DNA of 64,000 nucleotides from an uncultured Planctomycetales bacterium (lineage in GTDB: Bacteria; Omnitrophota; Gorgyraeia; Zapsychrales; JAHFFX01). The DNA is taken from positions 6,253 through 70,252 of the forward strand of contig CAZUJQ010000002.1 of NCBI GenBank assembly GCA_964620805.1, read 5' to 3'. Below the pieces are notes generated by a model. The model was not told the DNA's origin, did no database searches, and saw only the letters and a list, made by a program, of their open reading frames with translations. A program made the translations under genes and the position numbers. This document shows positions 4,297 through 59,783 of this stretch, one piece after another; the first letter of the stretch is position 1; each line of letters begins with the position of its first letter.

Positions 4297-4299
4297 TAA

Positions 4300-4388
4300 G
4301 TTGCCAATGTTTCCAAAGTTTCCAAGGTTTAGGAAGGCAACCTCGGCAACTTTGGCAACTTTGGCAACATGGGAAACATGGGCAACTT
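4300..4388. repeat. family-A 9-mer-arm element, copy A1 (minimal: arms abut, no core)
   Basis: (gttgccaat)(gtttccaaa)(gtttccaag)(gtttaggaa) | (ggcaacctc)(ggcaacttt)(ggcaacttt)(ggcaacatg)(ggaaacatg)(ggcaactt). Confidence 0.8.
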
Positions 4389-5454: not shown

Positions 5455-8400
5455 CTACGTGGATTGCTCTTTTTGACAATGATGACTGCAGCCATCGTCA
5501 TCGAGGATATTGCCATCATCGCAGGCTTCGGTTGAGGCTTGGAAAATGCCGTTTCCGCAAATCTCGGTGATACAATGGCGGTCGCATCCGTCCCGATCTT
5601 TGCGATTGCCATCGTCACATAATTCTCCCGGCTGGAGGATACCATTCCCACAGAGTTCTATTTGACAAGAGGCATCGCATCCATCCCCGTTTCTGGAATT
5701 GCCATCGTCACACTGCTCTGTTTTTTGATTGACAGAGCCATCTCCACAGAAGGTCTCTTTTTCTTCCTCCTCCTGCTTTTCCTGTTCTTCTTGCTTTTCC
5801 TCTACTGGAATTAGAGCATCCAGGGATTGAAGGGTTTCTTCCAGGGAGATTGAGGAGGCTGGGGAGTCGTCCTGGAGAGTTTGTTTGCTTTTGCTTTCAA
5901 TGGCCTCTATGAGATTTTTTCGTGATTCGATGGCCTTCTTGACCAAAAGAAACTGTGAGGGAATTTGTTCATTGGCTGATCTCCCCTTGGAATTTTGAGT
6001 TAAACCCACGGGTTTAGGGGTTTGCGTTGTTTTTGTTTGATTGGATTTTTTTATGGAAGACTCTTTGCCATAGGAATCAACCGAGCTTGTCTGGGTTGTT
6101 GTCTTAGGTCTGAAAGTGTCTTGGATCTTAGGCCCGGGGATCTTAAAGCGCGAAGAATAAGAACCCGTATTACTCCTGCTCCCACCGCCACCGCTGCCAC
6201 CAGCGACGACCGAAGAACCACCCTTGCCTTTTTCCACTGTCACTTCTGGGAGAGGAGTGGGACTTAGGGGAATAGACGTTATGTTGGATTTCACATTTGG
6301 ACTAGACTCATTGGCCGGCGGTTTGACAATAGGCTCCTCTTTTTTATCCGTTTGCTCTTGAGGGGGCACGGTATCGGTTATTTTCGGTTGAGGATAAGAT
6401 GATATTTCCACTTTCGGCGAAGCATCCTCCTGAGGAGGCTGGATAACGGGTTGGAGCACGGGGGCCTCTTCTTTTTTCGGCTCCATCTTGGTTTCTTCCT
6501 TTGGGGACTCGATTTTGACTTCTTCTTTCTTGGGTTCTACCTTGATCTCCTCCTGCTTCGGTTCAATCTTGATCTCCTCTTTCTTGGGCTCGATCTTGGT
6601 CTCTTCCTTCGGCAGATTGACCAGGGGCTCAGGCGGCTTGGGGGGATCGATGTCCTCTTTCTTGGCCTCAACCTTGGGCTCCTCTTTCTTGGGCTCCACC
6701 TTGACTTCTTCCTTCGGCAGACTGACCAACGGTTCAGGTGGCTTAGGGGGATCGATCTTGACTTCCTCTTTCTTAGGTTCAGTCTGGGATGATTGCGAGG
6801 GCTGTGACGTTTGAGACGGTTGCGACGCTGGAGATGGCAGAGGAGTTTTGGGCAGCTCTATCTTGATTTCCTCCTTCTTTCCCGATTCCTGGAAATTCAC
6901 CAAAACAATTTTGGGATCACTGGTTGAACTTGAGGAGCTTGTTGGTGAATTTGTCTGCGGAGGATTTTGGGCTGATGGTAAGCTAATAGGATTCGCTTGC
7001 TTAGGTTCCCCCTTTGTTGTACCCGCCGTCGAAGAGTCTGGCTGGGGAAAACGGCTGGAACCGAATTCCAACGCCCCGATATCCCAGGATGCGCCACGAT
7101 CAAACTCATTGTAATCTAAATTCGATAAACCCGGAATCACCAAAGCCGCGTTGATGGCCGGGCTGCCGGCCAAGAGATCCAGGTTATATTCAGCACCGGA
7201 ATAAAAGGAAATGATCGGCCCAATCAATTTGGGGTCCGTGCATTTGGAATGGGATTTATCTTTACAATCGCTGGCAAAGTTTTTTGTATTCCATATAATC
7301 GAGTAATCATCATTCATCGGCAGACTTCCGCAGGGACCATCGGCATTCCCTGTCCTGCCAGAGGCGTAATACAAAGCCGATAAATCTTTGCCGTCATTAA
7401 ACTCGATTCCTCCTAAAAAGATATTGTTTCTGGAGGTAAAAGTCTCTTTCCCAGTGCATTCGGAACCTGAAGACAAAACGATCACATCGCCGTTCCCTGT
7501 GATGGTGCTATTGAGGAGATTGACTTTTGTTCCTGCTCTAAAAGCAGCAGCGATGCTGCTTCCCGCGGCCCGGCAGTGGTTAAAGGTCGCCGACTTCCAA
7601 GTGAAGGGTTGGTTTTTGAAGTACCCACAATTGCCAACGATGAGTGAGTTTTCGATAACCGTGTCTGCCGAGACTTTCACTTGATTGCCCGCATTACCCT
7701 CAAAGCGGGACCGTTTAATTGTGATCGTGCCGTTTCCATTGTGATAGAGCAAATCCAGGCCATCGGAGACATTGTGGCTGAAATCCACGTTGTGGAAGAC
7801 CCAATAGCCGCCGGTGGAATGGGTCCCCAGGCCATCCCCGTATCCACCCTGATCCTGACTGTAGCAATTGTAAGGCTGCTTTCCTTGGGCCAGGCCGGCC
7901 TGCCCGGGGAGGGGATACGTTTCCCCGCATCCGCTGTAAAGGATTTTGGTCCGGTTAAAAGTCATGGTCCCGGAATTGGAGGATTGATTGGCCCCGATAT
8001 CGCCATCCCAGCCCACAAAAGAATTATTGACGATTTGGGAATCTTCGATGGTCCAGTCCTTGATCCGTCCAGCATGAATTCCCCGGTACAAACCGTGGAT
8101 GGCGACGTTTTTAATGAGAACATTGCTGCTATCCGAGGCAGAAATCCCCGTTACTGCCCATTCGCCATAGGGAGGTGCCCCGTCTCTTTTACAAGGTTTA
8201 GGGCCGAAGACCTGGCAGTCGGAATGGTCGGTTATGTCGAGACATTGCAATTCCACATTGTTGCTTGCCTGCAGGCTCAAAACTTGCCATATCCTCTCCA
8301 CGCCAAACAATTGGGGAGGATTGCTACAGTCCGCATCCCAGCCTTTGCCTAAGATTCTTGTGGGACGGGCGGGATCTGGCCCGGAAGGAATCGAGCGCAT

Positions 8401-8763: not shown

Positions 8764-9474
8764 AATAAAAAAACCTATTCTTCTGTTGGGGCTTTACGCA
8801 GCAATCTCGAAGAATAGGTATGAATGACCCGTGCTTCAAAAAGGTTAAACCCTTCTGTGACACGTAATGCATTCCCTGTTTTGGCAGCTGGCTGCCTCTC
8901 CGAAATTGTTCGGTTTAAGGCCCTGCCCCAACGCTCGTTTCTCTCGGCACCGACGTTCTCTGGGAAATTTATATGAGGTGGTCGGAGTGCCGACTGTAAC
9001 GTCGGCATCGGGGTCCCGACTTTCCCGACGCCCCGCCCTTGCGGGGGTCGGGACTCCGACCGAGTTCAACGAACGTCGGAGCCTTTTGAATTTAATCAAG
9101 GAAACGTCGGGATAGTTTTGCCCCGGCTTCGCTCAAATGCTTTCGCTTTGAGTCCGCCTTCGTCAAATACTTTACGTGTTTGACTTCGGCGGCTCCTGCG
9201 TAGCTCGAACAAAAGAGTATTCGAGCGAAGCAGGACCTCGCCGGGCCCCTACTACTTCGCTTTGCGAAGCAAAGCGGTAGGGGGTCTCCGCCTTACGGCA
9301 GATTTGCCCTTATCAGTACAGACTTGACAAAAGAGCAATTTTTACTTTACGGTTGGAGTATAACATGAGCCGCGCCCTCTTGTCAAATACCTATCCTCGA
9401 TGAGATTTAATAAAATCAAGGGGCTTTTCTTTTGCTCGTTTATAGTCCTTAGGAGGGATGTTGTTGAGAGATCG

Positions 9475-10252: not shown

Positions 10253-12067
10253 TTAATGAGTCAAACCTCTGGCTTTTCCTGATTGTTCTGCCACATATTG
10301 ATTCCATTCTTCGATCGTTTTGGCGATCGTGTCCCGGACCCGATAAAGCACTTGACTGTCTTTGGTGAAATGATCTATCCCTAAGGCCAGTTCTTTGTCA
10401 ATGGCCAATAAAGCTTGGGTCCGGACATAAAGGGGATAAGCCCCCTTGGGATCGAACCCCAAGGGAGGGCCCATCTTCTCCACTTCCCTCATTTTTTCTT
10501 TCAACAGCGACAAATACTCATAATCTTCCATCCCATCGCGGAAGAGCTCACTGCGGATGGAGCCTAGGGGTCCGTTTTCTCCCGGATAGAATAAAAGTCC
10601 GTTACCATTTTGCGCCCAATCGGTATTTGCGGCGCTTTGAAAAGGATCGACCTTTGGCCACCAATTCACACACCAGTAGAGGAATCCTGTGATATTGTAC
10701 TTCCAGCACAGCCAGGGCACAATCCGATAATCCATCGAATCAAAATCCATGGCCAGGTTGGGCGTCGAGTAGCCACCCGGGCCGGAAATATACATCCAGA
10801 TTTCCATGCCTTTTTCTCTTAATGCGTTTATCTTCCGTTCATCAAAATGGTCGATCTGAAAAGTCCAGATATCGATATCCTTTCCCCAGTCCGGGTCGGA
10901 GTGTGGATCCCAGAAGCCGTGGTAGCAGACCATGTTTTTTAATCCCGGATAGGCCCGATGAATCATCGAAGAGATTTTGGCGACCCGGGGATCGCCGATT
11001 GTCCCTTCATCCCAGGTGTAGATGTAATGCAGGGAAAGTAAATTGTGCAGTTTGAGGTTTTCTCCGTAACTGCGGTACACTCCTAACAATCCTTCAATCT
11101 CACTATCGCTCTGGGGCCAATTGTTGTTGAAGGTGCCTCCCTTTCTCCCAACGGAAAATTGCGTTAACCCAAACCAGCGGTAACGATCCAAGCGGGATAA
11201 ATCCTCGGGAGAAGTTGGGTCAATGTTTAAGACCGGATTCATTCGGGTGCGGAGCATCTCGATTAGGAATTTGTCGTTGAGTTCGTCGATACGGCTTTGA
11301 TAGGCTTGATCGTGTTCCTGTTGGCCCTGTGGATACCGGGCCCGGGTGATGTGTCCGTAAAAGTCAAAGGCGGTTCTAAGGTGGCTGGTCTGGGGAAGAA
11401 CAAAATCATAAACCTTCACGGAAAAAGGGATTTGTTTTAGCAGGACGGTTTGGCTCTTTAGGTAAATCCAGCCCTGGTAATCTCCCGCGGGCGTCTTGGG
11501 AGGGATATAAACCGTGACCCAGAAAGGCTGAACCCTTTGAGCTGGGATATCCATTCTTTTCTCTGGTAAAAGAGGATCCGGCCAGGGCCCCACGAACTTG
11601 ACCGGATAATAAGGCCGGATCGTGGGGACATATCCCACCACCCGCCAGGTGACGTTCGCCCCATCGAGGCGTGCGCCAGAGGGCCCGTTGACCAGATCGG
11701 ATATTTCCAGGCCCACAGACTGGAGAGGTTCTCTTCCGCTGGCGACGGCAATTTGAAACGATTCGTATTCGTTGCCGGCCAGGGCTAAATCCGCTAAGTT
11801 ACGAAACCGTGGCTCTACCAACGTCTGGCCATCTTGGAAGATCCGCTCCAGGCTGGAGGCGACAACGATACGCACACCCTGAGCGTCTGAAAGGACTTGG
11901 CTCCAAAGCCTTGTTGTGTCGTAGCGTTTGGGTTGTTTGATCTTTCGGTAGGTTTTGTAAGCGGCCCAGGTGCCTAAGGACAGCCCACCCAGGACGATGG
12001 CCACGGTTACGATCAAGGATAGCAAAGAAACCGATCGTTTAGGATTGTTGGACATGAAGTTCCTCAT
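10253..12067 (-). CDS. membrane-anchored glycoside-hydrolase-like protein (DUF4091 / GH123-like)
   Basis: N-terminal TM anchor. The C-terminal region 'FRDGMEDYEYL' with W-rich segments resembles DUF4091, which is found in GH123-like proteins. Confidence 0.4.
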   Translation of the reverse strand: MRNFMSNNPKRSVSLLSLIVTVAIVLGGLSLGTWAAYKTYRKIKQPKRYDTTRLWSQVLSDAQGVRIVVASSLERIFQDGQTLVEPRFRNLADLALAGNEYESFQIAVASGREPLQSVGLEISDLVNGPSGARLDGANVTWRVVGYVPTIRPYYPVKFVGPWPDPLLPEKRMDIPAQRVQPFWVTVYIPPKTPAGDYQGWIYLKSQTVLLKQIPFSVKVYDFVLPQTSHLRTAFDFYGHITRARYPQGQQEHDQAYQSRIDELNDKFLIEMLRTRMNPVLNIDPTSPEDLSRLDRYRWFGLTQFSVGRKGGTFNNNWPQSDSEIEGLLGVYRSYGENLKLHNLLSLHYIYTWDEGTIGDPRVAKISSMIHRAYPGLKNMVCYHGFWDPHSDPDWGKDIDIWTFQIDHFDERKINALREKGMEIWMYISGPGGYSTPNLAMDFDSMDYRIVPWLCWKYNITGFLYWCVNWWPKVDPFQSAANTDWAQNGNGLLFYPGENGPLGSIRSELFRDGMEDYEYLSLLKEKMREVEKMGPPLGFDPKGAYPLYVRTQALLAIDKELALGIDHFTKDSQVLYRVRDTIAKTIEEWNQYVAEQSGKARGLTH

Positions 12068-13283
12068 ACAGAGAATGGATTTTGCGGCCGATGGTCTTCC
12101 AGTCGTACTGTTGACAAACCAGCTTGCGGGCCTCTATCCCGAGACTGTGCCGTTTCTCAGACGTTTCCAGTAGAGATACAACCTCATCGGCAAACTCTTC
12201 CGCGGAATCCGCCAGCACGATGTCTTTATCAGAGGTGTAACCGATTCCTTCGGCGCCCAAGGAAGTGGAGACCACGGGCTTGGCCATGGCCATGGCTTCC
12301 AAAATTTTTAGTCTGGTCCCGCCCCCTACGCGGATGGGGCAGACAAAGATTTGGGATTTCGCCAGAAAGGGCCGCACATCCTCGACCTTGCCGGTCACCA
12401 TAATCCTGGAATCCTGAGCAGCTAACGCCAGCAAAGAGCTGCTCGGGGATTTGCCAACGACGTAAAACGTCAGCCGGGGTTTGACCTTCCAGATCAAAGG
12501 CAAAATCTCTTTACAAAAATACAGCACGCCATCGCGATTGGGCCACCAATCCATTGAGCCGGTGAAGATGAGGGATTCGTCAAACTGACGACTGACGACT
12601 GACGACTGACGACTAGATTCTCTAAGCTTTGGGCTCTGAGCTCTGGGCTGAAAATACTCCGTATCCACTCCGTTGGGAACCAGATGCACGGCTGTCCTCT
12701 TCATCCCAAGTTTAAGCAAGCTTTTCTGGTCATCCTCCGAGACCGCCCAGCACATGGAGAACTCCCCCAGACGCCGGGATTCAAAATTTTTCATGGTGCC
12801 AGCCTGATGGGTCAACAGAAACCTTTTGATTCCCGATGGCTCTACCCTTGCGCAACGCTCCAAAATCTTGTGCTCCACATTGTGCCCATCCAGGACACTG
12901 AGCGCCCCATTAAAACAATGCCGGTACTGCGCCATGTGGACATGGTCCACATGAACCGCGTCAAACGACTCTTGCCGAATCAGATATTGGATGTGTTTCC
13001 TCATCTTTAAGGAATGGTATTTCGCCACCGATACCGGCATCTGACGAAACAGCGCCTGGAATAAGACTCCCCACCCCCCTTTTTTCTTAGGCACGAGGGT
13101 CACCGAGATGCCTTCCTTTTCCAGCTCTTTGGCCATTTCAGAATCGTTTTCCTCGAAGGAAAAGCACACAAGATGCACTTGAGCGCCATGCCTAAGCTGC
13201 CGGAGGATGTGCAAAGTCCTGATCTTGCCGCCGGTGTCGGCCGGCAGGGGAAGGCGAGGAGCGAGAAAAAGGATTTTTTTCAT
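12039..13283 (-). CDS. glycosyltransferase family 4
   Basis: GT-B fold, 'GGGTRLKILEAMAMAKPVVST' E-x7-E region. Contains the heptanucleotide tract at 12574-12603. Confidence 0.7.
   Translation of the reverse strand: MKKILFLAPRLPLPADTGGKIRTLHILRQLRHGAQVHLVCFSFEENDSEMAKELEKEGISVTLVPKKKGGWGVLFQALFRQMPVSVAKYHSLKMRKHIQYLIRQESFDAVHVDHVHMAQYRHCFNGALSVLDGHNVEHKILERCARVEPSGIKRFLLTHQAGTMKNFESRRLGEFSMCWAVSEDDQKSLLKLGMKRTAVHLVPNGVDTEYFQPRAQSPKLRESSRQSSVVSRQFDESLIFTGSMDWWPNRDGVLYFCKEILPLIWKVKPRLTFYVVGKSPSSSLLALAAQDSRIMVTGKVEDVRPFLAKSQIFVCPIRVGGGTRLKILEAMAMAKPVVSTSLGAEGIGYTSDKDIVLADSAEEFADEVVSLLETSEKRHSLGIEARKLVCQQYDWKTIGRKIHSLYEELHVQQS
12574..12603. repeat. heptanucleotide tandem repeat (ACTGACG/CTGACGA x4.3) inside the GT4 coding sequence
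   Basis: Directly visible 'actgacgactgacgactgacgactgacgac'; it encodes the linker 'SRQSSVVSRQ'. Confidence 0.8.
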
Positions 13284-15568
13284 ATCTCCTCATAAAGCCG
13301 TTCGTATTTCTCAACCATGTGCTCCAAGGAATAATGCTTTCGGATGAAATCCGAAGCCTCCCGGCCCATCTCTAAAAAGAGACTTCTGTCTTTAACGACC
13401 CGACCCAGGACCTTGACCAATCCGGTGACATCCCCCGGTGCGACAAGAAATCCGTTTTTGCCGTGCCAAATGATTTGCGGGATCCCTCCCACTTTTGTGG
13501 CCACAACTAGACGGGCACAGGCCATGGCCTCCAAAAGCGATAGAGGCACGCCTTCGGTTAAGGAGGTTAAGACAAAGATATCCAGAGCCGGGTAGAGGGA
13601 TGAGATGTCATCGATTAAGCCGGTAAAAAGGATGTGCTTCTCTAAATTTTTGTCCCGGACCAAGGCTTTCAAATAAGTCTCCTCTGGGCCATCGCCCACG
13701 ATCAGAAATTTAACAAGGGGGAACTCTTTTTGGATTTGGTCAGCCGCTTCGATCAACATCGCTTGATTTTTTTCGCGGCTCAGGCGCCCCACCGTGCCGA
13801 TCACGGCTTCTTCGTCCGAGATCCCATAACGGCTCCGAGCCGTTTTTCTTAAAACCGGATCATAGGAAAAGCGGTTCACATCCAGGCCGTTTGGAATCAC
13901 CTGTCTTTTTTGCGCCTTCAAATCCGGCAGGATGTTCTCAGCCACAACAACCACCCGACGAAAAAATGCCTTTAAAAGCCACCTGTCCAGTTTTTCATAC
14001 CAACGGACCGGCCGGGACATTTTTGTGTATCCATGGACCGTGGCGAGGAGGGGAACACCGTTTCCAGCCGTTGCCAGCAATCCCATAAGATCGGATTTGT
14101 AGTTGTGGGTATGGACAATATCAATTCGGTTTTGCCGGATAAATTTCTTTAGTAGCCGGCTGGTCCTCCAATCCCATCGTCCCCGGCTTTTAAATAAGGC
14201 GGTCTTCAGCCCCGCCTCCCGGGCCTTGTGGACAATCTCCAGATGAGGATTTCTCTCATCTTCGATGGCACCGATCATGGGGATAAATTTCCCGTGGTTC
14301 AAATGACGGGCCAGTGACAGGGCCACCCGCTCTGCGCCGAAAAAGCCTCCGCTGCTTATAAAATGTAAAACTTTTTTTATTAAAAGGGCCTGATAAAAAT
14401 TTTCGTATTCCCTCATCATCTGAGGAATGGTAAATTCTTTCTGGGCTCTTTGTCGTGCGTTTTGGCCCATGCTTTGTCTTTTCTCGGGATCCTCAATGAG
14501 TGTGAGCAAGGCCTCCTTTAAGGCCCGGGAATCGCCGGGGGCCACCAAAAGGCCATCCACCCCCTCCCGGATGAGTTCGGGATTGCCGCCCACACGGGTG
14601 GCGACCACGGCCTTGCCGGCCGCCATGTATTCTAAGATGGCGTTGGAGGTGCCTTCGCTCAAAGAGGGCAACACACAGATATCCGCGGCCTCGATAAAAC
14701 GCGAGACATCTTCGCGTTTTCCAAGAAAAAGGACATGCCTTTCCAATCTCTTTTTTCTGATGATCTCTTGTAGCTTTCCCCCCATTTTGTCTTCACCAAT
14801 CAACGCCAATCGGACCCGCGGATGGTCTACCACGATCTCCGGCAAGGCCTCGATGAGATAGATATGCCCTTTGACTGGCCGAAGATTCGCCACATGCACA
14901 ATTAAGGAAATGGGGTCACACCCCATTTCCCCACTTGAGGGAAATGGGGTGTGACCCCATTTTATTGGTGATTCCACGCCGTTATAGATCACCTCAATCC
15001 GCTCCGCGGGGATTCCCTCTTCTTTCATCATCCTCTCTTTTACGGCACCGGCCACCGCAATGAAGGTGTGCACCCAGCGGTTGATCAACTTGTAGGCGCT
15101 TCGATGAATGGGCTTGCGGCAGAACCCCATGTCCCGCCGGTTCGACACAATATGACGGACTCCCGCCCAATGCGCCCAGAACGTGCCCCAGATATCTGAT
15201 CCGAAATGATAGGTTTGGAGGATCTGGATGCGGTTGGCTTTGAGAAACCGCATAAAGCGGAGGCCCTGCACCATCCCCGAGATCCCGTAGATTCTCACCA
15301 CGCGGAAAACCTGGAATTCGCAGCCCGCCTCCCGCATCAGCTGTTGGGTGGACTCACAGATAGGATTCAGGCTGAGAACGAACACTCGATACCGTGAAGG
15401 GTCAAGATGAGAGATGAGCTGGTAAATCTGCTTTTCTGCCCCGGCCTGGAGGTCTTCCAGGACGTCGGTGAGCAATGCTAGGCGGATGGGTTGAGTGTTT
15501 TTCATATGAATATAAAATGTTGCTAATGTTTCCAAGGTTTCCAAAGTTGCCGAGGTTACCTGATTCAT
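13280..15568 (-). CDS. two-module glycosyltransferase (GT4-GT4 fusion); true start probably ATG at 15505 (MKNTQP...)
   Basis: Two successive GT-B GT4 units in one 762-aa ORF. The first 21 codons (MNQVTSATLETLETLATFYIH) are encoded by the family-A repeat. Carries the in-frame hairpin element at 14905-14962. Confidence 0.6.
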   Translation of the reverse strand: MNQVTSATLETLETLATFYIHMKNTQPIRLALLTDVLEDLQAGAEKQIYQLISHLDPSRYRVFVLSLNPICESTQQLMREAGCEFQVFRVVRIYGISGMVQGLRFMRFLKANRIQILQTYHFGSDIWGTFWAHWAGVRHIVSNRRDMGFCRKPIHRSAYKLINRWVHTFIAVAGAVKERMMKEEGIPAERIEVIYNGVESPIKWGHTPFPSSGEMGCDPISLIVHVANLRPVKGHIYLIEALPEIVVDHPRVRLALIGEDKMGGKLQEIIRKKRLERHVLFLGKREDVSRFIEAADICVLPSLSEGTSNAILEYMAAGKAVVATRVGGNPELIREGVDGLLVAPGDSRALKEALLTLIEDPEKRQSMGQNARQRAQKEFTIPQMMREYENFYQALLIKKVLHFISSGGFFGAERVALSLARHLNHGKFIPMIGAIEDERNPHLEIVHKAREAGLKTALFKSRGRWDWRTSRLLKKFIRQNRIDIVHTHNYKSDLMGLLATAGNGVPLLATVHGYTKMSRPVRWYEKLDRWLLKAFFRRVVVVAENILPDLKAQKRQVIPNGLDVNRFSYDPVLRKTARSRYGISDEEAVIGTVGRLSREKNQAMLIEAADQIQKEFPLVKFLIVGDGPEETYLKALVRDKNLEKHILFTGLIDDISSLYPALDIFVLTSLTEGVPLSLLEAMACARLVVATKVGGIPQIIWHGKNGFLVAPGDVTGLVKVLGRVVKDRSLFLEMGREASDFIRKHYSLEHMVEKYERLYEEI
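14905..14962. repeat. in-frame palindromic hairpin pair (GGAAATGGGGT-cac-ACCCCATTTCC ... GAAATGGGGT-gtg-ACCCCATTT) inside the GT4-GT4 gene
   Basis: Two 11-bp-stem hairpins 8 nt apart; translated in frame as 'KWGHTPFPSSGEMGCDPIS'. The same element recurs at 22584-22665. Confidence 0.75.
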
Positions 15569-15723
15569 CCAACATTCTTAAAGTTGCCCTTAAGTTGCCC
15601 AAGGTTACTGATTGATCCGACAATTTGTTGTTGGGTTAAGGCTTTGCAACCTCAAATAACCTTTCTGCAACCTCAAAAGGGCAACCTCGGCAACCTCGGC
15701 AACATGGGAAACATAGGCAACTT
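15519..15723. repeat. family-A element copy A2
   Basis: Left arm gttgctaat-gtttccaag-gtttccaaa-gttgccgag-gttacc; core tgattcatccaacattcttaaagttgcc; right arm ggcaacctc-ggcaacctc-ggcaacatg-ggaaacata-ggcaactt. Confidence 0.8.
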
Positions 15724-15727
15724 TATT

Positions 15728-17125: not shown

Positions 17126-17150
17126 TTTAAAATTTTGATCAGCCTATCAG

Positions 17151-17323
17151 GTTGCCTTTGTTTCCAGTGTTTCCGAGGTTGCCGATGTTAATTTATTTAC
17201 GTGACATTTTTAAGGTTGCTTAATGTTGCCTGATGTTGTCTTTTCCAACCTTTAGTAACTTCAGGCAACATCTTGAAAGGCAACCTTGGTAACTTTGGCA
17301 ACATAGGAAACATTGGCAACTTT
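17151..17323. repeat. family-A element copy A3 (core variant, leader ORF disrupted)
   Basis: gttgccttt-gtttccagt-gtttccgag-gttgccgat ... ggcaacctt-ggtaacttt-ggcaacata-ggaaacatt-ggcaacttt. Confidence 0.8.
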
Positions 17324-17894: not shown

Positions 17895-18707
17895 TTATGC
17901 TTTGTTTGGACAAAGCAATCTCAAAACATTCTCTTTCGTAAAGACCTTCATGTCCAACGGATTCTCCAGGAAATTCACCACATCGCGGTGCACCTTCCGC
18001 CAGTCGGCTTTATCCACCACTTGATAGAGGAAATCCCGCCAATTGTCTTCCCGCGGGATCTCCTTTGTCCATCCCGTTTGCGTCAAGGCATTATGCAGCA
18101 ACCGAATGTTGGGTTTGATATCCCTCCAGCGGGATAGATACCATCCCAAATCAAAAAAGTCCCGGCCTTTGGTGTATTTGCGGCTCAGCAAAGCAGACAC
18201 TTTGCCGGCAAAGAATGACGGAAGATCGAAGGTCAAAAAGGCAAGCGGAAAATATTTGTTGATGATTTGTATTTCGAGCCGGCTGCCCTCAGGCGGGTTG
18301 GTATCAATTTCGATCTTGACCGATAATTTCTGTTTTTTTAACGGGGAGAGACCTGCTTCATACAGCAGTCCCTCGAACTTAACAAAGGCCGATTGAACCG
18401 TTTTGACTTCATTGTAAGTCACCGAAACGTTGTAGCCGGCCAGATCCAATTCCTGCTTGAGCTTCTTGATGAGCTTGACAAAAGACAATGTCCTGCCTTG
18501 TACATGGGAAAAGTCCAAATCCTCGGAAAAGCGAGGCAGATTGTGCAAAAACCGCAGGGCCGTTCCTCCCCAAAAAGCCGTTGTTTGAAAAATCCCGTCA
18601 TCATGGAGAATCCTTAAGACATAGGCCTGCAGATATTCCCGCATCGTATTGAGCCTGACCTGGGATCCTTCCTTCGCGCCCGTCAGCTCTAGGAGGTAGT
18701 CTTTCAT
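17895..18707 (-). CDS. nucleotidyltransferase AbiEii/AbiGii toxin family protein
   Basis: 'FWGGTALRFLHNLPRFSEDLDFS' (DUF1814/AbiEii signature); 4-nt overlap with the upstream AbiEi-like gene. Confidence 0.65.
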   Translation of the reverse strand: MKDYLLELTGAKEGSQVRLNTMREYLQAYVLRILHDDGIFQTTAFWGGTALRFLHNLPRFSEDLDFSHVQGRTLSFVKLIKKLKQELDLAGYNVSVTYNEVKTVQSAFVKFEGLLYEAGLSPLKKQKLSVKIEIDTNPPEGSRLEIQIINKYFPLAFLTFDLPSFFAGKVSALLSRKYTKGRDFFDLGWYLSRWRDIKPNIRLLHNALTQTGWTKEIPREDNWRDFLYQVVDKADWRKVHRDVVNFLENPLDMKVFTKENVLRLLCPNKA

Positions 18708-19342
18708 AAAGTTTTCTCTTTCTTTTTATAGGCCAGGACATAATCTTTAATCATGGCAGCGGATTGTTCCATACGCGGTTTGCCGAAGCGCCTGGCGTAT
18801 TCCGATAATTTCCGCAGGTTGATTTTTTCGACATTTTGCAGGCGCAATTCCGCCAGATAATCCATCGAGACGTCCACATGCCTGAAATAGATCAGATCCA
18901 GAATGGATTTTTCCGGCTCCGCCATAAAAGCTGTTTGCTTTCTGACCTCCAGGGAATGATATCCCCAAAAAAGCGACTGCTGAATGTGCCGGTAATCAAA
19001 AATCCCCACCGGGGTATTAAAACGGCCCTGGCGTTTCGTGGTGACCGCCGTATAAACATTTACAGCCTCCGGAATCAGATTGTGAAATTCCAAGGCCTTC
19101 TCTAAGCTGATGTAGGAAGGCCTCTTCAGAAGGCTGGCGACAGCCGGCTCGAAGATTTCAATCCCTCGATAAGGTTCGGCAAGGATATAAATCCCCCGCT
19201 TTAACTGGATCAACTTGCCGGCCTTTTCCCAGCGGCTGATTTGAACCTTAATCGCATCCGGCTTGAGGGCCCCGGCTGAAAGAATCTGAGTATTGATAAC
19301 CGGCAGATGCTTCACCTGTGAGATGAGCTCAGCAAAGTCCAT
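18704..19342 (-). CDS. AbiEi-family antitoxin (type IV TA / abortive infection partner)
   Basis: 212-aa protein immediately upstream of and overlapping AbiEii; N-terminal wHTH-like region. Confidence 0.5.
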   Translation of the reverse strand: MDFAELISQVKHLPVINTQILSAGALKPDAIKVQISRWEKAGKLIQLKRGIYILAEPYRGIEIFEPAVASLLKRPSYISLEKALEFHNLIPEAVNVYTAVTTKRQGRFNTPVGIFDYRHIQQSLFWGYHSLEVRKQTAFMAEPEKSILDLIYFRHVDVSMDYLAELRLQNVEKINLRKLSEYARRFGKPRMEQSAAMIKDYVLAYKKKEKTL

Positions 19343-20305: not shown

Positions 20306-20323
20306 TGGCGTTACTCGTAAGTA

Positions 20324-20624
20324 TCATTGCGACCCCGCCGTAGTTTGGCGGGGGAAGCAATCTTTTTACAATTTATCCCATAAATCTCCCCATGTAGAAA
20401 ACGCTGGTATAGGCTTCGTTCTTCTTCGCTCTCAGCCAAAGGCTGATCCGCCTCTGGCAGAAAATGTTCTTGCGTTTGCCCGCCCCGGCTATCGTGACTA
20501 GGCGGGCCAGGGAGCTTCGAAGGAACGATTCCTACGAAGCTCAAACATGAAAGTATTCGAGCGGAGAATAAAAGATTGCTTCGTCGCTTCGCTCCTCGCA
20601 ATGACACATTCCTCGCATGACACA
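20324..20624. repeat. family-B palindromic element core (TCATTGCGA...GAAGCAATCTTTT // AAAAGATTGCTTC...CTCGCAATGACA) split by a ~200-bp insertion that carries further repeat modules
   Basis: Left part 20324-20368 and right part 20568-20606 match the cores at 29731-29838 and 62458-62560. The insert contains 'AGAAAACGCTGGTATAGGCTTCG' (also at 24333) and 'CGAAGGAACGATTCCTACGAAGC'. Confidence 0.65.
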
Positions 20625-20636
20625 TGGAGAATAAGC

Positions 20637-21626: not shown

Positions 21627-21637
21627 TTTGAATATAA

Positions 21638-21802
21638 GTTGCCGATGTTTCCAAGGTTTCCGAGGTTGCCAAGGTTACCCTATTCATCTGACATCCTTTA
21701 AGGTTGATTGAGGTTATCTATGAGGGAAACCTCACGTAACTTTAGGCAACCTCTAAGAGGCAACCTTGGTAACTTTGGCAACATAGGAAACATCGGCAAC
21801 CT
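21638..21802. repeat. family-A element copy A4
   Basis: gttgccgat-gtttccaag-gtttccgag-gttgccaag-gttaccct; core attcatctgacatcctttaaggttg; right arm ggcaacctt-ggtaacttt-ggcaacata-ggaaacatc-ggcaacctg. Confidence 0.8.
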
Positions 21803-21820
21803 GATTGTCGGCTTCTTTTA

Positions 21821-23098
21821 TTAGACGCCGCCCCCAAACGCCTTGATGGCCTCCTGATAAGCCTTAAGCGATTCTTCCACTAATTTTTGATAGGAATAGG
21901 CTGTCCGGACCTTCTTTAACCCGTTGGCAGCCAGTTTAAGGCGTAACGCCTCATCTTGCAAGAGACGCAGGATGGCCTTCGCCAGCATCATAGCGTCCCC
22001 GGGATTAACCAGCAGGCCGTCTTTTTCGTGATGAATCAATTCTTTTAAACCTCCAGCGGTGGAAGCGATGAGGGCGCACCCCGAGGCCATCGCCTCCAGG
22101 GCGCTTAAGGGCAAACCCTCATCGTAAGAAGGCATGATCAGGATGGAACTTTTTCTTAACCAAATTTTAAGCTGATCCGGTGGCAATGTCCCCAGATATT
22201 CAAAATTTTTTGCTCCTATGGCTTCCCGCAGCATTTGACTGTTTTTCTTTCCATCAGAGGAGAAGGCATCAGCGCCCGCGACCGCCAATTGGACGTCAGG
22301 GAATTCTTTAATGACCAGGGGCAGGGCTTGGGCCATCACATCAATGCCTTTTCTTGGAATCAATCGACCGGCAAACAGGATCTGGCAAGGATCTTTTTTT
22401 CCATTGGGAGAGAAAATTTGACTATCAACCGCGTTATAAATGGTCTTGATATTCCGATTAATCCTCCAGACCTGCTTTACGAAATCCGCCGTATCCCTAG
22501 AGACCGCCGCCAAGCCATCCGCCTTAAGCAGGGTGTCCCGCTGCATGGCCCAAGAGATTCGCTCCTTTAAGCTCAAGGTGGTTGAAATGGGGTCACACCC
22601 CATTTCCCTGCCTAACGTTTCCTGGGTTGGAAATGGGGTTGGAAATGGGGTGTGACCCCATTTCCTAGACCATCCGTGCAGGCGAAAAAAGACCGGAAGG
22701 CGATTGTGGCGCCGGGCGTAAATAAACCCTTGCCGGAAATAATCGAAAGTTTCCACGATATCCAGGGCATATTCCGCTTGGACGGACTCGATTTTCTTCG
22801 CCACGGCTTTCGAATACCGCAAATCATTCAAGGGAAGAAACCGCTCAATCTTCCAGACCCCCGGGAAGAGATCGTCATCAAAGGGGACGTGGTGAACAAA
22901 AATATTTTGTCCCAATCGGCCGCGGTTTAAATCCCCTTCGTCCTGGCAAAGGATATGGACGGAGTGCCCCGCCTCACTCAAGGCCCTGGCATAATGGGCC
23001 GTGAAGGTCTCGATCCCGCCGGAATCTTGGTGAAAATTTCGACACAAAAGACAGATGTTCATCGGACTCCCCATCTCTCTCTTACTCAAGGGATTCAA
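21821..23098 (-). CDS. glycosyltransferase family 4
   Basis: GT-B fold, 'ILIMPSYDEGLPLSALEAMASGCALIASTAGG'. Carries the in-frame hairpin element at 22584-22665 ('RKWGHTPFPTPFPTQETLGREMGCDPIS'). Confidence 0.7.
   Translation of the reverse strand: MNPLSKREMGSPMNICLLCRNFHQDSGGIETFTAHYARALSEAGHSVHILCQDEGDLNRGRLGQNIFVHHVPFDDDLFPGVWKIERFLPLNDLRYSKAVAKKIESVQAEYALDIVETFDYFRQGFIYARRHNRLPVFFRLHGWSRKWGHTPFPTPFPTQETLGREMGCDPISTTLSLKERISWAMQRDTLLKADGLAAVSRDTADFVKQVWRINRNIKTIYNAVDSQIFSPNGKKDPCQILFAGRLIPRKGIDVMAQALPLVIKEFPDVQLAVAGADAFSSDGKKNSQMLREAIGAKNFEYLGTLPPDQLKIWLRKSSILIMPSYDEGLPLSALEAMASGCALIASTAGGLKELIHHEKDGLLVNPGDAMMLAKAILRLLQDEALRLKLAANGLKKVRTAYSYQKLVEESLKAYQEAIKAFGGGV
22584..22665. repeat. second copy of the in-frame palindromic hairpin pair (loop cac ... 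loop gtg), here with a 33-nt spacer holding an extra half-arm
   Basis: 'gaaatggggtcacaccccatttcc...ggaaatggggtt ggaaatggggtgtgaccccatttcc'; translated in the same frame as the copy at 14905-14962. Confidence 0.75.
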
Positions 23099-24248
23099 TC
23101 AAACCGGGAAGACCCGTAAATGTGACCTGAGTCCCTGCGTATTTCCTAGAGAACGTTCTATCTACATCCTGGGCCACAACAAAAACTTTGGCTTCAGGAT
23201 ATTGATAAAGAAAGGCCTCTAAGTTGTGACCGTCAAATTGATTAGCTTTCCATTTACATTCTATGGCAATAGGGCTAATGACCTTTCCCTTATTAGGAAT
23301 CACAAAGTCTATCTCGTGGCCTCGCTTGTCACGCCAGTAATGAATCTGGCGCTTATAAAGCTTCGCTAGAATTTCATTAAGAACATAATGTTCCCACAAA
23401 ATCCCCAAGTCCTGTTCCCGTAATTCGTACCATCCGCGGTAATAACAGACAAATCCTGTATCAAATCCATACACCTTGGGAGCTGAAATAATCTCGGTGG
23501 GACGATGAGAACTAAAAGGATGAACAATGTGAGCTACAAATGTCATCTCCAGAACCTTAAGATAATTGGTAATCGTGGTCCGACTCACCTCACAGGGAGC
23601 CGTAAATCGTGTGGCTTCAAAAATGCTCCCGCTTTGGGCCATAATCAATTCGATAAATTTTTGAAAAGAATACTTTCGCTCCAACCGAAACAATTCTTGA
23701 ATGTCCTTAGCCCAGTAAGCATCCATCCATTCCTGAAAATCAGCTTCTGGAAACTCCTTGGATAAAAGAAACGGTGGTAACCCCCCTCTTAATAAGCGAA
23801 ACTTGAAATCCTTGATTTCGAAATCCATCAGATCTTCATTAATAGCTGGAGCCAACCATATTTCCTTCTTTCTTCCTGACAACGTGTCTTTAAATTTTGA
23901 AGACGCGCCCAGAGTCGAGGAACCTGTGGCCAGAATTTTGATTCCCGGATAATGATCGGCAGCGATCTTAAGAAGCTGGGCTGGATTCTCATGCCGGTGA
24001 ATCTCATCCAACACAATACGCTCCCCCTTATTCTTAAAACTTTCCAGGAATTCTTCCGGATCTTCCATGAGGCGGCGTACCCGAGGCAACTCGCAATCGA
24101 AATATTCAACGGTATCCAAACTTTTAGACAAATACGTCTTGCCTACACGTCGGACTCCGGAAAGCCAAATCACTGAGCGCGTTTGCCATGACTTTTCTAT
24201 CTCTTTGACCCAGTAGTTTCTTTTTACCATTTGTATATATAATATCAT
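23082..24248 (-). CDS. ATP-binding protein (AAA domain + DUF4143)
   Basis: Walker A 'GVRRVGKT', Walker B 'IVLDEIH'; C-terminal DUF4143-like region. Similar in architecture to 30075..31343. Confidence 0.6.
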   Translation of the reverse strand: MILYIQMVKRNYWVKEIEKSWQTRSVIWLSGVRRVGKTYLSKSLDTVEYFDCELPRVRRLMEDPEEFLESFKNKGERIVLDEIHRHENPAQLLKIAADHYPGIKILATGSSTLGASSKFKDTLSGRKKEIWLAPAINEDLMDFEIKDFKFRLLRGGLPPFLLSKEFPEADFQEWMDAYWAKDIQELFRLERKYSFQKFIELIMAQSGSIFEATRFTAPCEVSRTTITNYLKVLEMTFVAHIVHPFSSHRPTEIISAPKVYGFDTGFVCYYRGWYELREQDLGILWEHYVLNEILAKLYKRQIHYWRDKRGHEIDFVIPNKGKVISPIAIECKWKANQFDGHNLEAFLYQYPEAKVFVVAQDVDRTFSRKYAGTQVTFTGLPGLIESLE

Positions 24249-24545: not shown

Positions 24546-24582
24546 GGGGCTCCTAGTATTTTCACTTTAGTTCCAATATAAA

Positions 24583-25150
24583 GTTTCCGATGTTTCCAAA
24601 GTTTCCGAGGTTTCCAATGTTACCTCATTGATTCGAGATGCTTTAAGGTTGCTTAACGTTGTTTCAGGTTAAATTTCATTCTTTCCGGGTGTTGTCCATT
24701 TACCTTTATTGGACGACTTGTTCATGGACTTAAGGTATTGATTACTCATGTAAAGAGCGCTTTTACATAGTTTGGTCAATTGATCGTGTTCTTGAGGATT
24801 GATTAGCTTATCTTCCAAGCAATCATCAATATCTCCGCTTAATTCTTCCAAGGATCCTTGGCTTATGCGTATGGCCTTCAGAAACTCGGCTAAACTTCCT
24901 CGGCTGTAGCCCTCCCTGATATTCTGCTTTGCTGAGCGCGTCGCGCTTCTCATCTCACTGACAAGTCTAATATGGCTTTTTTCAAATCGTGTTATGATAG
25001 CCGCAACTAACTTGCGAAGCTCGCATATGTCTTGATAAAATTTGAGCTTTTCGTATGGTCTTGCTGGCATCTGCAACCTCACATAACTTCTTTGCAACCT
25101 CCAAGAGGCAACCTCGGTAACTTCGGCAACATGGGCAACATCGGCAACCT
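24583..25150. repeat. family-A element copy A5 with the four-helix-bundle gene inserted between core and right arm
   Basis: Left arm 24583-24625 plus core ttgattcgagatgctttaaggttgcttaacg; right arm 25071-25150 begins immediately after the 4HB start codon. Confidence 0.75.
24669..25097 (-). CDS. four-helix-bundle protein (23S rRNA intervening-sequence protein family; probable start at 25070, MPARPY)
   Basis: 'SATRSAKQNIREGYSRGSLAEFLKAIRISQGSLEELSGDIDDCLE' matches the S23/IVS four-helix-bundle family. Sits entirely inside family-A repeat copy A5. Confidence 0.6.
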   Translation of the reverse strand: MQRSYVRLQMPARPYEKLKFYQDICELRKLVAAIITRFEKSHIRLVSEMRSATRSAKQNIREGYSRGSLAEFLKAIRISQGSLEELSGDIDDCLEDKLINPQEHDQLTKLCKSALYMSNQYLKSMNKSSNKGKWTTPGKNEI

Positions 25151-25204
25151 CCTTTTACAGGCTCCTCATATATTCATGAATATTTAAGGCATAGGGCTAA
25201 ATAA

Positions 25205-29714: not shown

Positions 29715-29908
29715 AAGTTATTAACTTTGGTGTCATTGCGAGCCATCGTTGATATTTCGTTTTGGCGAAGCAATCTTTTTAGACGATCTCAAAGATTGCT
29801 TCGTCGTCGCTAAAAAGCGCTCCTCCTCGCAATGACACGATCTGGCATCCCCAAGTTTCATACTAATATTCTTTTTGATACCTACTCTTCATAAAACTTT
29901 TGACAGTA
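29708..29908. mobile_element. family-B MITE-like element (TIRs TTGTCAAAAGTT ... AACTTTTGACA with internal multi-hairpin core TGTCATTGCGAG...CTCGCAATGACA)
   Basis: Matches 62436-62630 in the same architecture, and the core at 20324-20624. Confidence 0.6.
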
Positions 29909-30074
29909 CCTTCCAAGGACTCTAGTCCTTAGGAATCGATGATTTCTACATGGGGGGCAGGATAAACCTTGTCTTGGCATTGCCCCAGGAGCGCACCTTG
30001 CGGATGATCTCGTCTTTTATAATCTCTCTAACCTTAAAACCCTCGAACATATCCTCCCCCACCTTTCGCTTTTC

Positions 30075-34249: not shown

Positions 34250-34364
34250 TCCGACATTCTTAAGGTTAATTAACGTTGCCTGACGTTTTCAACCTTTTGT
34301 AACTTCGGGTAACCTCTAAAAGGCAACTTCGGCAACGTCGGCAACCTGGGAAACATTGGCAACA
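34190..34364. repeat. family-A element copy A6
   Basis: gtttccaat-gtttccgaa-gtttccgag-gttgccaag-gttatctta; core ttcattccgacattcttaaggttaattaacgttgcc; right arm ggcaacttc-ggcaacgtc-ggcaacctg-ggaaacatt-ggcaacata. Confidence 0.8.
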
Positions 34365-39350: not shown

Positions 39351-39479
39351 ATATTAACCTTTCCTTTGCTGAGAGCACAGCGCATAGAGCTTAGGGCTAA
39401 TGGCGTATGGCTCATAGCTCATAGCTTTGGGCTGTGGGCTATGGGCCATGAGCTCTACGCCCTTAGCCCTATGCTGACA

Positions 39480-59737: not shown

Positions 59738-59783
59738 TCTACTTCTTTACTTCTGACTTCTGACCTCTGACTTCTGACCTCTC

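What the first reader, a model, noticed from the sequence alone, without database searches (positions are those of the whole stretch)
12574..12603. Heptanucleotide tract (CTGACGA)x4 inside a GT4 gene: candidate slipped-strand phase-variation switch
Four perfect tandem 7-mers, not a multiple of three, lie in the inter-domain linker of the GT4 at 12039-13283 and encode SRQSSVVSRQ. Gain or loss of one unit would frameshift and remove the C-terminal GT-B domain.

Phase-variable glycosyltransferases are a classic way to vary surface glycans. A related purine-rich 7-mer tract (CTTCTGA/CCTCTGA x5) sits at 59745-59783, just 3' of the ligase gene.
Basis: partly seen in the sequence, partly recalled or inferred. 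Interest (0 to 1): 0.55.

Follow-up and report, generated by a model that had tools for sequence, protein, structure and literature searches.

The report
Heptamer microsatellite in glycosyltransferase linker loop
A real run of four 7-base repeats sits in a floppy loop between the two halves of a sugar-transferase gene of an uncultured Omnitrophota-like bacterium; it is one instance of short 7/8-base repeat arrays that litter this lineage's genomes, could frameshift the gene when it slips, but nothing yet shows it is used as an on/off switch.

Summary
The tract is real but about 10 bases off: (CTGACGA)x4 lies at 12585-12612, and the maximal period-7 run is 12584-12614 (4.4 units). It is far beyond chance.

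It encodes aa 224-234 of a GT4/GT-B glycosyltransferase, inside the model's only disordered segment, the interdomain loop. One, four or seven units keep the frame. Other counts truncate the protein at 229-267 aa.

No other copy number was found, but only one population has been sampled.

Context weakens the idea of a dedicated switch:
- At least 7 distinct orthologues in close relatives carry unrelated 7- or 8-nt arrays in the same loop. All are in frame. None of about 125 distant homologues has one.
- The same kinds of array also occur in intergenic DNA and in other GT linkers.
- The older half of this insert matches an intergenic heptamer hairpin at 39.4 kb.
- Neighbouring genes carry in-frame palindromes at similar sites.

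Such arrays do mutate. Two 98%-identical contigs differ only by three octamer units in this loop.

Best reading: a slippage-prone microsatellite tolerated in a permissive loop, a by-product of lineage-wide array proliferation (0.55). A true phase switch remains possible (about 0.25).

The parts
12584..12614 (-). Perfect heptanucleotide array. On the coding strand it reads (TCGTCAG)x4 plus 3 nt, 4.43 units, and encodes aa 224-234 (SRQSSVVSRQ).
12613..12647 (-). Five degenerate heptamer units 5' of the perfect array on the coding strand: CCCAGAG CTCAGAG CCCAAAG CTTAGAG AATCTAG. This is the older part of the loop insert. It aligns in register with the intergenic heptamer hairpin at 39.4 kb.
12039..13283 (-). 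GT4 (GT-B fold) glycosyltransferase gene, 414 aa, TIGR03087-like (PEP-CTERM/XrtA-associated). It overlaps the upstream double-GT4 gene by 4 nt and the downstream GH123-like gene by 29 nt.
12654..13283 (-). N-terminal Rossmann-like domain (about aa 1-210).
12042..12575 (-). C-terminal (nucleotide-sugar binding) domain, aa 237-413. It is lost in all out-of-frame copy numbers.
59749..59782 (-). Second heptamer array, read on the minus strand as GGTCAGA AGTCAGA GGTCAGA AGTCAGA AG. It is intergenic, starts one base after the stop codon of the acyl-CoA ligase gene, and forms no significant hairpin.
39351..39479 (-). Intergenic hairpin made of inverted heptamer arrays (z = -6.2). Its left arm is homologous to the degenerate units of the GT4 loop.
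14908..14962 (-). Perfect palindrome (24-nt arms) translated in frame in the first interdomain loop (aa 203-221) of the neighbouring double-GT4 gene. It shows the same 'permissive loop collects repeats' pattern.

Best explanation
The tract is a young, still perfect heptanucleotide microsatellite. It grew by replication slippage inside a structurally permissive, disordered loop that joins the two Rossmann-like domains of a GT4 glycosyltransferase. The gene sits in an exosortase/PEP-CTERM-type polysaccharide cluster of an Omnitrophota-like bacterium.

It is translated in frame as extra loop (SRQSSVVSRQ). It is one local case of a lineage-wide tendency to generate and spread 7- and 8-nt tandem arrays, often as inverted hairpin-forming pairs, in intergenic DNA and in the few coding positions that tolerate them.

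Shown:
- the location of the tract and its frame arithmetic
- disorder of the encoded loop
- recurrence of arrays in orthologues
- dispersal of the same units elsewhere in the same contigs
- copy-number change between near-identical strains

Inferred: single-unit slips at this tract produce null alleles at an elevated but modest rate (only 4 units). These are usually removed by selection rather than used as a regulated switch. Only changes that keep the frame, such as three units, persist.
For: 1. Permissive site. In the AlphaFold2 model (mean pLDDT 88) the only segment with pLDDT below 50 is aa 217-233, which is the repeat-encoded loop. The fold is GT-B/GT4. The loop is 39 nt long in most of about 145 homologues but 57-219 nt in many close relatives.

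2. Recurrence with unrelated units. Seven distinct close orthologues (at least 45% identity) carry arrays in this loop: WIN, L084, L083, L091 (TCCCACA x6.9), L100, L086 and L095. All have period 7 or 8 and all are in frame. None of about 125 distant homologues has one.

3. The phenomenon is genome-wide in the lineage.
- The same units recur in intergenic DNA and in other GT linkers of the same contigs: L098 AGTTCAA at four sites, L095 AACGCAA, L084 and L086 at aa 183 of other GT4s.
- Period-7-family arrays with TRF score of 40 or more occur at 7.7 per 100 kb in close-relative contigs against 1.7 per 100 kb in distant ones (Poisson P = 2e-6).

4. Link to a dispersed family in this genome. The degenerate half of the insert aligns in register with the intergenic heptamer hairpin at 39.4 kb. 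They share an 11-mer found only at those two sites (0.03 expected).

5. Other permissive coding sites in the window hold in-frame palindromes.

6. Arrays are mutable, but only in-frame alleles are seen. L095 and L167 are 98% identical over 1.6 kb, and their sole indel is 24 nt, or 3 octamer units.

7. Published precedents. Dispersed heptamer arrays are mostly intergenic, and in-ORF copies sit at the periphery of proteins (PMC4679880). Heptamers are over-represented among long bacterial SSRs (PMC4692102). Protein biophysics shapes where SSRs survive within genes (PMC3315296).
Against: - The exclusive use of non-triplet periods (7 or 8) at one site in many orthologues is also what recurrent selection for a frameshift switch would produce.
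- The window tract is perfect, which suggests recent or ongoing slippage.
- Growth from 1 to 4 units in single steps would pass through OFF states, so null alleles must at least be survivable.
- The sampled loci are GT-rich by construction, so I cannot show that GT linkers are hit no more often than other permissive sites.
- No read-level data were available.
Confidence: 0.55

Rival explanations
1. The tract is a true contingency locus. It works as a slipped-strand phase-variation switch that reversibly turns this glycosyltransferase ON (1, 4 or 7 units) and OFF. It may also reduce expression of the translationally coupled downstream GH123-like and deacetylase genes. The effect would be to diversify the exopolysaccharide, for example against phages or predators.
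For: - The frame arithmetic and truncated products fit.
- The tract is perfect.
- The gene encodes a surface-glycan enzyme inside a tightly overlapping operon.
- Non-triplet arrays recur at the same site in at least 7 orthologues and in other GT4 linkers.
- Array length changed between 98%-identical strains.
- In-ORF heptanucleotide and octanucleotide SSRs are proposed phase-variation mediators in Haemophilus influenzae (PMC2651432).
Against: - The tract has only 4 units. The H. influenzae heptanucleotide SSRs proposed as mediators have 8-38 units (PMC2651432), and SSR mutability rises steeply with length (PMC3315296).
- No allele other than 4 copies was found: three assemblies, the predicted products for 0-8 copies in a collection of about 15 billion proteins, and no N-terminal fragment among the top hits.
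- All arrays in orthologues are in frame, and most are degenerate at 65-92% match.
- The tract is mid-gene rather than 5'-proximal.
- The same kinds of array lie in intergenic DNA, where frame is irrelevant.
Confidence: 0.25
2. The loop insert is the remnant of a dispersed, possibly mobile, hairpin or array element (MITE/RPE-like) that landed in frame. The perfect four units are a secondary local amplification. Any effect on the gene is incidental.
For: - The degenerate half matches the left arm of the 39.4 kb intergenic hairpin.
- Orthologous loops in L083 and L086 contain complete inverted arrays that fold as hairpins (z = -5.8 and -3.1).
- Two palindrome families are inserted in frame at several genes of the window.
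- There is a precedent in Rickettsia palindromic elements, which insert in frame (PMC10969869).
Against: - No terminal inverted repeats, target-site duplications or transposase were identified.
- The window's GT4 region has no significant hairpin (z = -1.4).
- Array units differ between genomes, which fits local generation better than a shared mobile element.
- This reading overlaps the best explanation more than it excludes it.
Confidence: 0.15
3. The tract is a chance repeat or an assembly artefact.
For: None beyond the short length of the tract.
Against: - About 2e-10 such runs are expected by chance, and the maximum in 200 simulations was 18 nt.
- The tract is identical in three separate assemblies (window, ENA, JGI).
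- At 31 nt it is shorter than typical reads and assembly k-mers.
Confidence: 0.01

Closest known systems
SSR contingency loci in glycosyltransferase and adhesin genes of host-adapted pathogens (for example Haemophilus influenzae tetranucleotide LOS genes, and heptanucleotide or octanucleotide SSRs at hmw and HI1369-like genes; PMC2651432)
   Same: - A non-triplet tandem repeat lies inside an ORF for a surface-glycan enzyme.
- A change of one unit frameshifts the gene.
- Orthologous arrays differ in copy number between strains.
   Different: - The tract has only 4 units, against 8-38 for the H. influenzae heptanucleotide SSRs.
- It lies mid-gene in a disordered loop rather than near the 5' end.
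- No OFF alleles are seen anywhere.
- The organism is free-living or environmental and uncultured.
- The same arrays abound in intergenic DNA.
Dispersed heptamer tandem repeats of bacteria: cyanobacterial STRR heptamers (Calothrix, Nostoc), GGGAATC in Xanthomonas, TAACTGA in Beggiatoaceae, Cyanobacteria and Bacteroidetes (PMC4692102, PMC4679880)
   Same: - Units are 7 nt, with 2-7 copies per array.
- There are many loci per genome, mostly intergenic, and some form inverted pairs.
- Occasional in-ORF copies lie outside conserved domains.
- Length varies between close relatives.
   Different: - There is no single dominant unit here. Each genome, and even each locus, has its own unit.
- Octamers occur as well.
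- Insertion recurs in one particular protein loop across orthologues.
- The phylum (Omnitrophota-like) did not come up in my literature searches for such repeats.
Rickettsia palindromic elements (RPE) and other intragenic MITEs (PMC10969869)
   Same: Repetitive, hairpin-forming DNA is inserted in frame into unrelated enzyme genes at positions compatible with the fold. It is translated as extra peptide.
   Different: - RPEs are about 150 bp and encode conserved peptides in defined families. Here the inserts are short tandem arrays or 47-80 nt palindromes.
- No mobility features were detected.

Membership tests
GT4 / GT-B fold glycosyltransferase | Two Rossmann-like domains, with matches to the Pfam GT4 N-terminal and Glycos_transf_1-type C-terminal models | tested here: met
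   PF13439 scores 41.7 bits (cut-off 28.5) and PF13692 scores 100.8 bits (cut-off 27). The AF2 model matches MshA, BshA, PimB' and GlgM with TM 0.66-0.74.
TIGR03087 (stp1) PEP-CTERM/XrtA-system glycosyltransferase | Score at or above NCBIfam's curated cut-off (316.65 bits) | tested here: not met
   It is the best NCBIfam hit, but at 275.3 bits it falls below 316.65. The context fits: an EpsI/exosortase-like gene lies at 479-1111 and a TIGR03088-like double GT4 lies next door. The protein is related, but not a member by the curated threshold.
SSR-mediated phase-variable (contingency) gene | An uninterrupted non-triplet tandem repeat within the ORF, or in the promoter, whose length change alters expression | tested here: met
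   The run is 4.43 perfect 7-nt units. One, four or seven units are ON and other counts are truncated. It passes the permissive detection threshold of at least 3 units used for heptanucleotides in PMC2651432.
SSR-mediated phase-variable (contingency) gene | Observed repeat-number polymorphism at the locus within or between closely related strains, including OFF alleles | tested here: not met
   Only the 4-unit allele was found in the window, L001 and L002. The predicted products for 0-8 units are absent from a collection of about 15 billion proteins. A flank-gap-flank scan of metagenome contigs found nothing. Sampling is very thin, with one population, so this is weak negative evidence. In an orthologue, an in-frame 3-unit difference was seen, but no OFF allele.
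SSR-mediated phase-variable (contingency) gene | High-frequency, reversible switching measured in a population | not testable with these tools
   This needs read-level data or culture, and neither was available.
Dispersed heptamer repeat families (STRR / TAACTGA / GGGAATC type) | Many arrays of 7-nt units per genome, predominantly intergenic, over-represented relative to other periods | tested here: inconclusive
   The window has 5-6 heptamer arrays, 3-4 of them intergenic. At TRF score of 30 or more the count is not above simulation. Across close-relative contigs, the period-7 family is 4.5-fold enriched over distant contigs (P = 2e-6). Only 64 kb of this genome was available, so no whole-genome census was possible.
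Dispersed heptamer repeat families (STRR / TAACTGA / GGGAATC type) | One conserved unit sequence shared by the arrays of a genome | tested here: not met
   Units differ between loci in the window: TCGTCAG, CCCANAG, GTGAGTA, GTCAGAR. Partial sharing exists: the GT4 loop and the 39.4 kb hairpin, L098 AGTTCAA at four sites, and L095 AACGCAA at three sites.
RPE/MITE-like intragenic elements | A repeated element family with copies inserted in frame in unrelated genes | tested here: met
   This holds for the palindromes, not for the tract itself. AAATGGGGTCACACCCCATTT is found in two GT4 genes, and AAAAGTAGGSGCTGTCCCTA at the C-terminal tails of two other enzymes.
RPE/MITE-like intragenic elements | Terminal inverted repeats, target-site duplications or other evidence of transposition | not tested
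   No empty-site comparison was possible, because no close relative of this genome was available.

The most novel reading that the evidence does not exclude
Omnitrophota-type bacteria maintain non-triplet (7/8-nt) arrays in the interdomain loops of several exopolysaccharide glycosyltransferases as genuine contingency loci. The arrays evolved convergently with different unit sequences at the same loop in many species. This would give uncultured environmental nanobacteria a combinatorial, phase-variable surface glycan, a strategy so far documented mainly in host-adapted pathogens.
Probability: 0.2. Interest if true: 0.7.

Novelty: new variant of a known kind. Interest (0 to 1): 0.4.

Why it matters
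If it is only a tolerated microsatellite, the tract itself is ordinary. The pattern around it is still instructive. A lineage of uncultured bacteria repeatedly places non-triplet arrays and palindromes in the same permissive loops of GT-B enzymes. This shows how selfish or slippage-generated DNA becomes protein linker, and how protein structure filters where repeats survive.

If the arrays are used as switches, SSR phase variation of surface polysaccharides would extend to free-living or episymbiotic candidate phyla. It would also offer a sequence signature, non-triplet arrays in GT-B linkers, for finding such loci in metagenomes.

Either way the tract is a ready-made strain-typing and microdiversity marker for this population.

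Tried and rejected
- **Metagenome scan for other copy numbers.** I searched for left flank, N{10,40}, right flank. It gave 0 hits, although the pattern works on the window. The source sample is evidently not in that collection, so the result is uninformative.
- **Exact look-up of predicted allele products.** The products for 0, 1, 2, 3, 5, 6, 7 and 8 copies are all absent.
- **Genome-collection scan for close relatives or the source genome.** The best hit is only 47% identical, a Planctomycetales MAG. The source genome is not among the representatives returned.
- **mRNA structure at the tract.** There is no significant fold (z = -1.4). The second tract also has none (z = -1.0). A structural or attenuator role for these two arrays is rejected.
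- **Programmed ribosomal frameshift site.** TCGTCAG does not fit the X XXY YYZ slippery pattern, and there is no downstream structure. This rests on inspection.
- **Rfam and tRNA scans of the window.** No matches.
- **Enrichment of period-7 arrays in the window alone at a low TRF threshold.** Not significant (4 observed against 1.7 simulated). Enrichment appears only at a higher score and across relatives.
- **Frameshifted (OFF) orthologues among 20 close loci.** None found. The long tblastn spans were adjacent paralogous GT genes.
- **Promoter and terminator consensus scan around the gene.** Nothing above background, except that it revealed the in-ORF palindrome at 14912-14958.

Full report
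**1. Observation**

The tract exists but is displaced by about 10 nt from the coordinates given. (CTGACGA)x4 occupies window 12585-12612. The maximal perfect period-7 run is 12584-12614 (31 nt, 4.43 units).

It is the only perfect array of 3 or more copies with period 5-12 in the 64-kb window. It is far beyond chance: the longest lag-7 run in 200 first-order Markov simulations was 18 nt, and the analytic expectation is 2.4e-10.

It lies in the minus-strand ORF 12039-13283 (414 aa). On the coding strand the unit is TCGTCAG, starting at gene nt 672 (aa 224), and it encodes SRQSSVVSRQ.

About nine units (63 nt, 21 aa) of the loop are therefore heptamer-built.

**2. The host gene and the site**

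- Pfam assigns a GT4 N-domain (aa 49-209) and a Glycos_transf_1-type C-domain (aa 237-373).
- An AlphaFold2 model built on 20 homologues has mean pLDDT 88. Its single segment below pLDDT 50 is aa 217-233, which is the repeat-encoded loop between the last N-domain strand and the first C-domain strand.
- Foldseek places the model among retaining GT4 enzymes such as MshA, BshA, PimB' and GlgM, with TM 0.66-0.74.
- The best NCBIfam model is TIGR03087 (PEP-CTERM/XrtA-system glycosyltransferase), at 275 bits, below the curated cut-off of 316.65.

The gene sits in a long minus-strand polysaccharide cluster. The cluster includes a double GT4, a Wzy-like polymerase, a GH123-like protein, a polysaccharide deacetylase, an EpsI/exosortase-like protein, sugar-nucleotide enzymes and Wzt. 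The gene overlaps its upstream neighbour by 4 nt and its downstream neighbour by 29 nt.

All named near relatives of the window's HemB are Omnitrophica/Omnitrophota (68-70% identity). The organism is most likely an uncultured member of that phylum. This is an inference from best hits.

**3. Frame arithmetic**

One, four or seven units give full-length protein (407, 414 or 421 aa). Zero, 2, 3, 5, 6 or 8 units give products of 229-267 aa that lack the C-domain. The mechanical prerequisite for an ON/OFF switch is therefore met.

**4. Search for length variants of this tract**

- The identical protein occurs on contigs from ENA (L001, 1 mismatch in 21 kb) and JGI (L002, identical). Both have four units.
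- The exact predicted products for 0-8 units other than 4 are absent from a collection of about 15 billion proteins.
- No high-identity N-terminal fragment appears among the best hits. The next relative is 53-55% identical.
- A flank-gap-flank scan of metagenome contigs found nothing. The source sample is apparently not in that collection, since the pattern does match the window itself.

In effect only one population has been sampled. This is weak negative evidence.

**5. Comparative evidence at the same loop**

I extracted the loop, between the invariant F211 and F240 equivalents, from about 145 homologous loci.

- The basal length is 39 nt.
- None of about 125 homologues at 40% identity or less has a tandem array there.
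- Among about 20 close relatives (at least 45% identity, with the conserved GT4, GH123-like, deacetylase gene order), seven distinct orthologues carry arrays of period 7 or 8 with unrelated units:
  - the window
  - L084: CCCAGCT and CGAGGAG
  - L083: CAGTTGGC x7.8 plus the inverted AACTGGCA x4.5
  - L091: TCCCACA x6.9
  - L100: GCCCCAGA x11.6
  - L086: CAGAGAC and the inverted AAGTCTC
  - L095: GCGAGTTG x4
- All are in frame, and no close locus is frameshifted.
- Further orthologues known only as proteins show 7- or 8-residue periodic loops.
- The inverted arrays in L083 and L086 fold as hairpins inside the ORF (z = -5.8 and -3.1). The single-arm arrays, including the window's, do not.

**6. 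The arrays are mutable**

L095 and L167 come from different sources. They are 98% identical over 1.6 kb, with 8 mismatches. Their only indel is 24 nt, exactly three octamer units, in this loop: 4.0 copies against 7.4.

L091 and L168 are 92% and 84% identical in nucleotide sequence on either side of the loop. Their loop arrays are quite different, with a length difference of 84 nt, or 12 x 7.

Copy number therefore changes much faster than the flanks diverge. Only frame-preserving alleles are seen.

**7. The phenomenon is not confined to this gene**

- In relatives' contigs the same units recur in intergenic DNA and in other GT linkers:
  - L098: AGTTCAA in a double GT4 at aa 239 and at several intergenic sites
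  - L095: AACGCAA in an ORF and in intergenic DNA, with an inverted partner
  - L084 and L086: arrays at aa 183 of other GT4 genes
- Period-7-family arrays with TRF score of 40 or more occur at 7.7 per 100 kb in close-relative contigs against 1.7 per 100 kb in distant ones (Poisson P = 2e-6). In the window alone, at a low threshold, the excess is not significant.
- Within the window, heptamer arrays lie in the gaps at 36.3-36.5, 37.1-37.3, 39.35-39.48 and 59.67-59.78 kb. The first three are inverted arrays that fold as long hairpins (z = -4.2 to -6.2).
- The degenerate half of the GT4 loop aligns in register with the left arm of the 39.4-kb hairpin. It shares an 11-mer that occurs only at those two places (0.03 expected).
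- Other permissive coding sites in the window hold perfect in-frame palindromes:
  - 14908-14962, in the first interdomain loop of the neighbouring double GT4 (z = -7.2)
  - the same element at 22584-22664, in another GT4
  - a second family at the C-terminal tails of a DRL-like oxidoreductase and RmlD

**8. The second tract**

The second tract (59749-59782) is intergenic. It starts one base after the stop codon of an AMP-binding acyl-CoA ligase gene and lies about 84 nt upstream of a thiolase gene. It is unstructured. It cannot act through a frameshift, and it shares only GTCAG with the GT4 unit.

**9. Interpretation**

The best-supported account has three parts.

- This lineage generates, and to some extent disperses, 7/8-nt tandem arrays.
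- Such arrays survive in intergenic DNA and in the few coding positions where extra disordered peptide is harmless. The GT-B interdomain loop is one of these.
- The window's tract is a young, locally amplified array next to an older, decayed one.

It is slippage-prone in principle. Single-unit slips give null alleles and may reduce expression of the coupled downstream genes (inference). With only four units the rate is probably modest.

For comparison, in H. influenzae the heptanucleotide SSRs proposed as phase-variation mediators have 8-38 units, and 3 units is only a permissive detection threshold (PMC2651432). SSR mutability rises non-linearly with length. Repeats are generally suppressed in the middle of proteins unless the structure tolerates them (PMC3315296).

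Dispersed heptamer arrays with occasional in-ORF copies outside domains are known from Beggiatoaceae and cyanobacteria (PMC4679880) and from Xanthomonas and Nostoc (PMC4692102). In-frame palindromic insertions are known from Rickettsia (PMC10969869).

**10. What keeps the switch hypothesis alive**

- The arrays at this loop are exclusively non-triplet.
- They recur in several GT genes.
- The window tract and the L091 tract are perfect or near-perfect.
- Stepwise growth implies passage through OFF states.

I put this rival at about 0.25. Read-level length heterogeneity would decide it.

**11. Verdict**

Novelty: a new variant of known kinds (coding microsatellite and dispersed heptamer arrays) in a phylum for which my literature searches returned no report of such arrays.

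Interest is moderate (0.4). It rests mainly on the recurrent same-site non-triplet arrays and on the repeat-rich architecture of the cluster, not on the tract itself.

Noticed in passing
window 4297-4387, 15519-15727, 17126-17320, 21627-21820, 24570-24668 + 25098-25204, 34190-34370, 38180-38396, 55193-55322: Nearly every intergenic gap of the minus-strand polysaccharide cluster holds the same module. It has 4-6 tandem 9-mers NNNGTTKCC right after the upstream stop, then a conserved core (..GAGGTTGCC.AAGTTAC.. / ..AACCTTAAAGGATGTCGGATGAAT.AGGTAAC), then 3-5 tandem 9-mers of the reverse complement just before the next start codon. There are 37 pattern hits against 0 expected. The modules fold as long beaded hairpins (z = -5.6 and -6.9). 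The module is absent from all 166 loci of other genomes and has no Rfam match. It may punctuate the operon mRNA, for example as a processing, stability or protein-binding element.
   Followed up: partly
window 14908-14962 and 22584-22664: A perfect palindrome (24-nt arms, 100% complementary, z = -7.2 for the first) is translated in frame as KWGHTPFP..GEMGCDPIS in two different GT4 genes. The first copy is at aa 203-221 of the double GT4, in its first interdomain loop. The second is at aa 145-172 of the 425-aa GT4. It looks like an RPE-like in-frame repeat family.
   Followed up: partly
window 32995-33048 and 35416-35485: A second palindrome family (AAAAGTAGGSGCTGTCCCTAMTTT, 24-26-nt arms, 96%) lies at the extreme C-terminal tails of a DRL-like oxidoreductase (aa 401-419 of 423) and of RmlD (aa 283-299). 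It is translated as KVGTAPTF / KLGTAPTF.
   Followed up: partly
window 36332-36512, 37098-37300, 39351-39479: These intergenic hairpins are built from inverted arrays of heptamers (GTGAGTA.../...TACTCAC, and CCCATAG CCCACAG CCCAAAG CTATGAG...), with z-scores of -4.2 to -6.2. The 39.4-kb one is homologous to the degenerate part of the GT4 loop insert.
   Followed up: yes
L095:1175-1215 vs L167 (gene 1254-2474): Two contigs from different data sources are 98% identical over 1.6 kb. They differ only by three octamer units (24 nt) in the orthologous GT4 loop array. Similarity ends abruptly after L095 nt 1613, and the downstream gene differs, which suggests a recombination breakpoint inside the cluster.
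   Followed up: partly
L091:2124-2171: An orthologous GT4 carries (TCCCACA)x6.9, including five perfect CCCACAT units, in the same loop. This is a longer and better candidate for slippage than the window's tract. Its 81%-identical relative (L168) has a different, 84-nt longer loop made of 7- and 21-nt repeats.
   Followed up: partly
window 20306-20636, 29715-30074, 31344-31666, 8764-9474, 47607-47752: Several larger gaps contain GC-rich palindromic repeats of the 'GTGTCATTGCGAGGAGCGAAGCGACGAAGCAATC' type and other stem-loops. These are dispersed repeats of unknown role, distinct from the 7- and 9-mer arrays.
   Followed up: no
window 6524-6756: In-frame 27-nt and 105-nt tandem repeats lie inside the 1102-aa secreted-type protein (cysteine-rich acidic repeats at its C-terminus, DUF4215-like). 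This is an ordinary coding repeat, but it adds to the repeat richness of the locus.
   Followed up: no
window 18138-19342 and 23082-24248, 30075-31343: AbiEii-like and AAA_14/DUF4143 ATPase genes are interspersed among the glycosyltransferase genes of the cluster. These are possible defence or mobile-element cargo within the polysaccharide locus.
   Followed up: no
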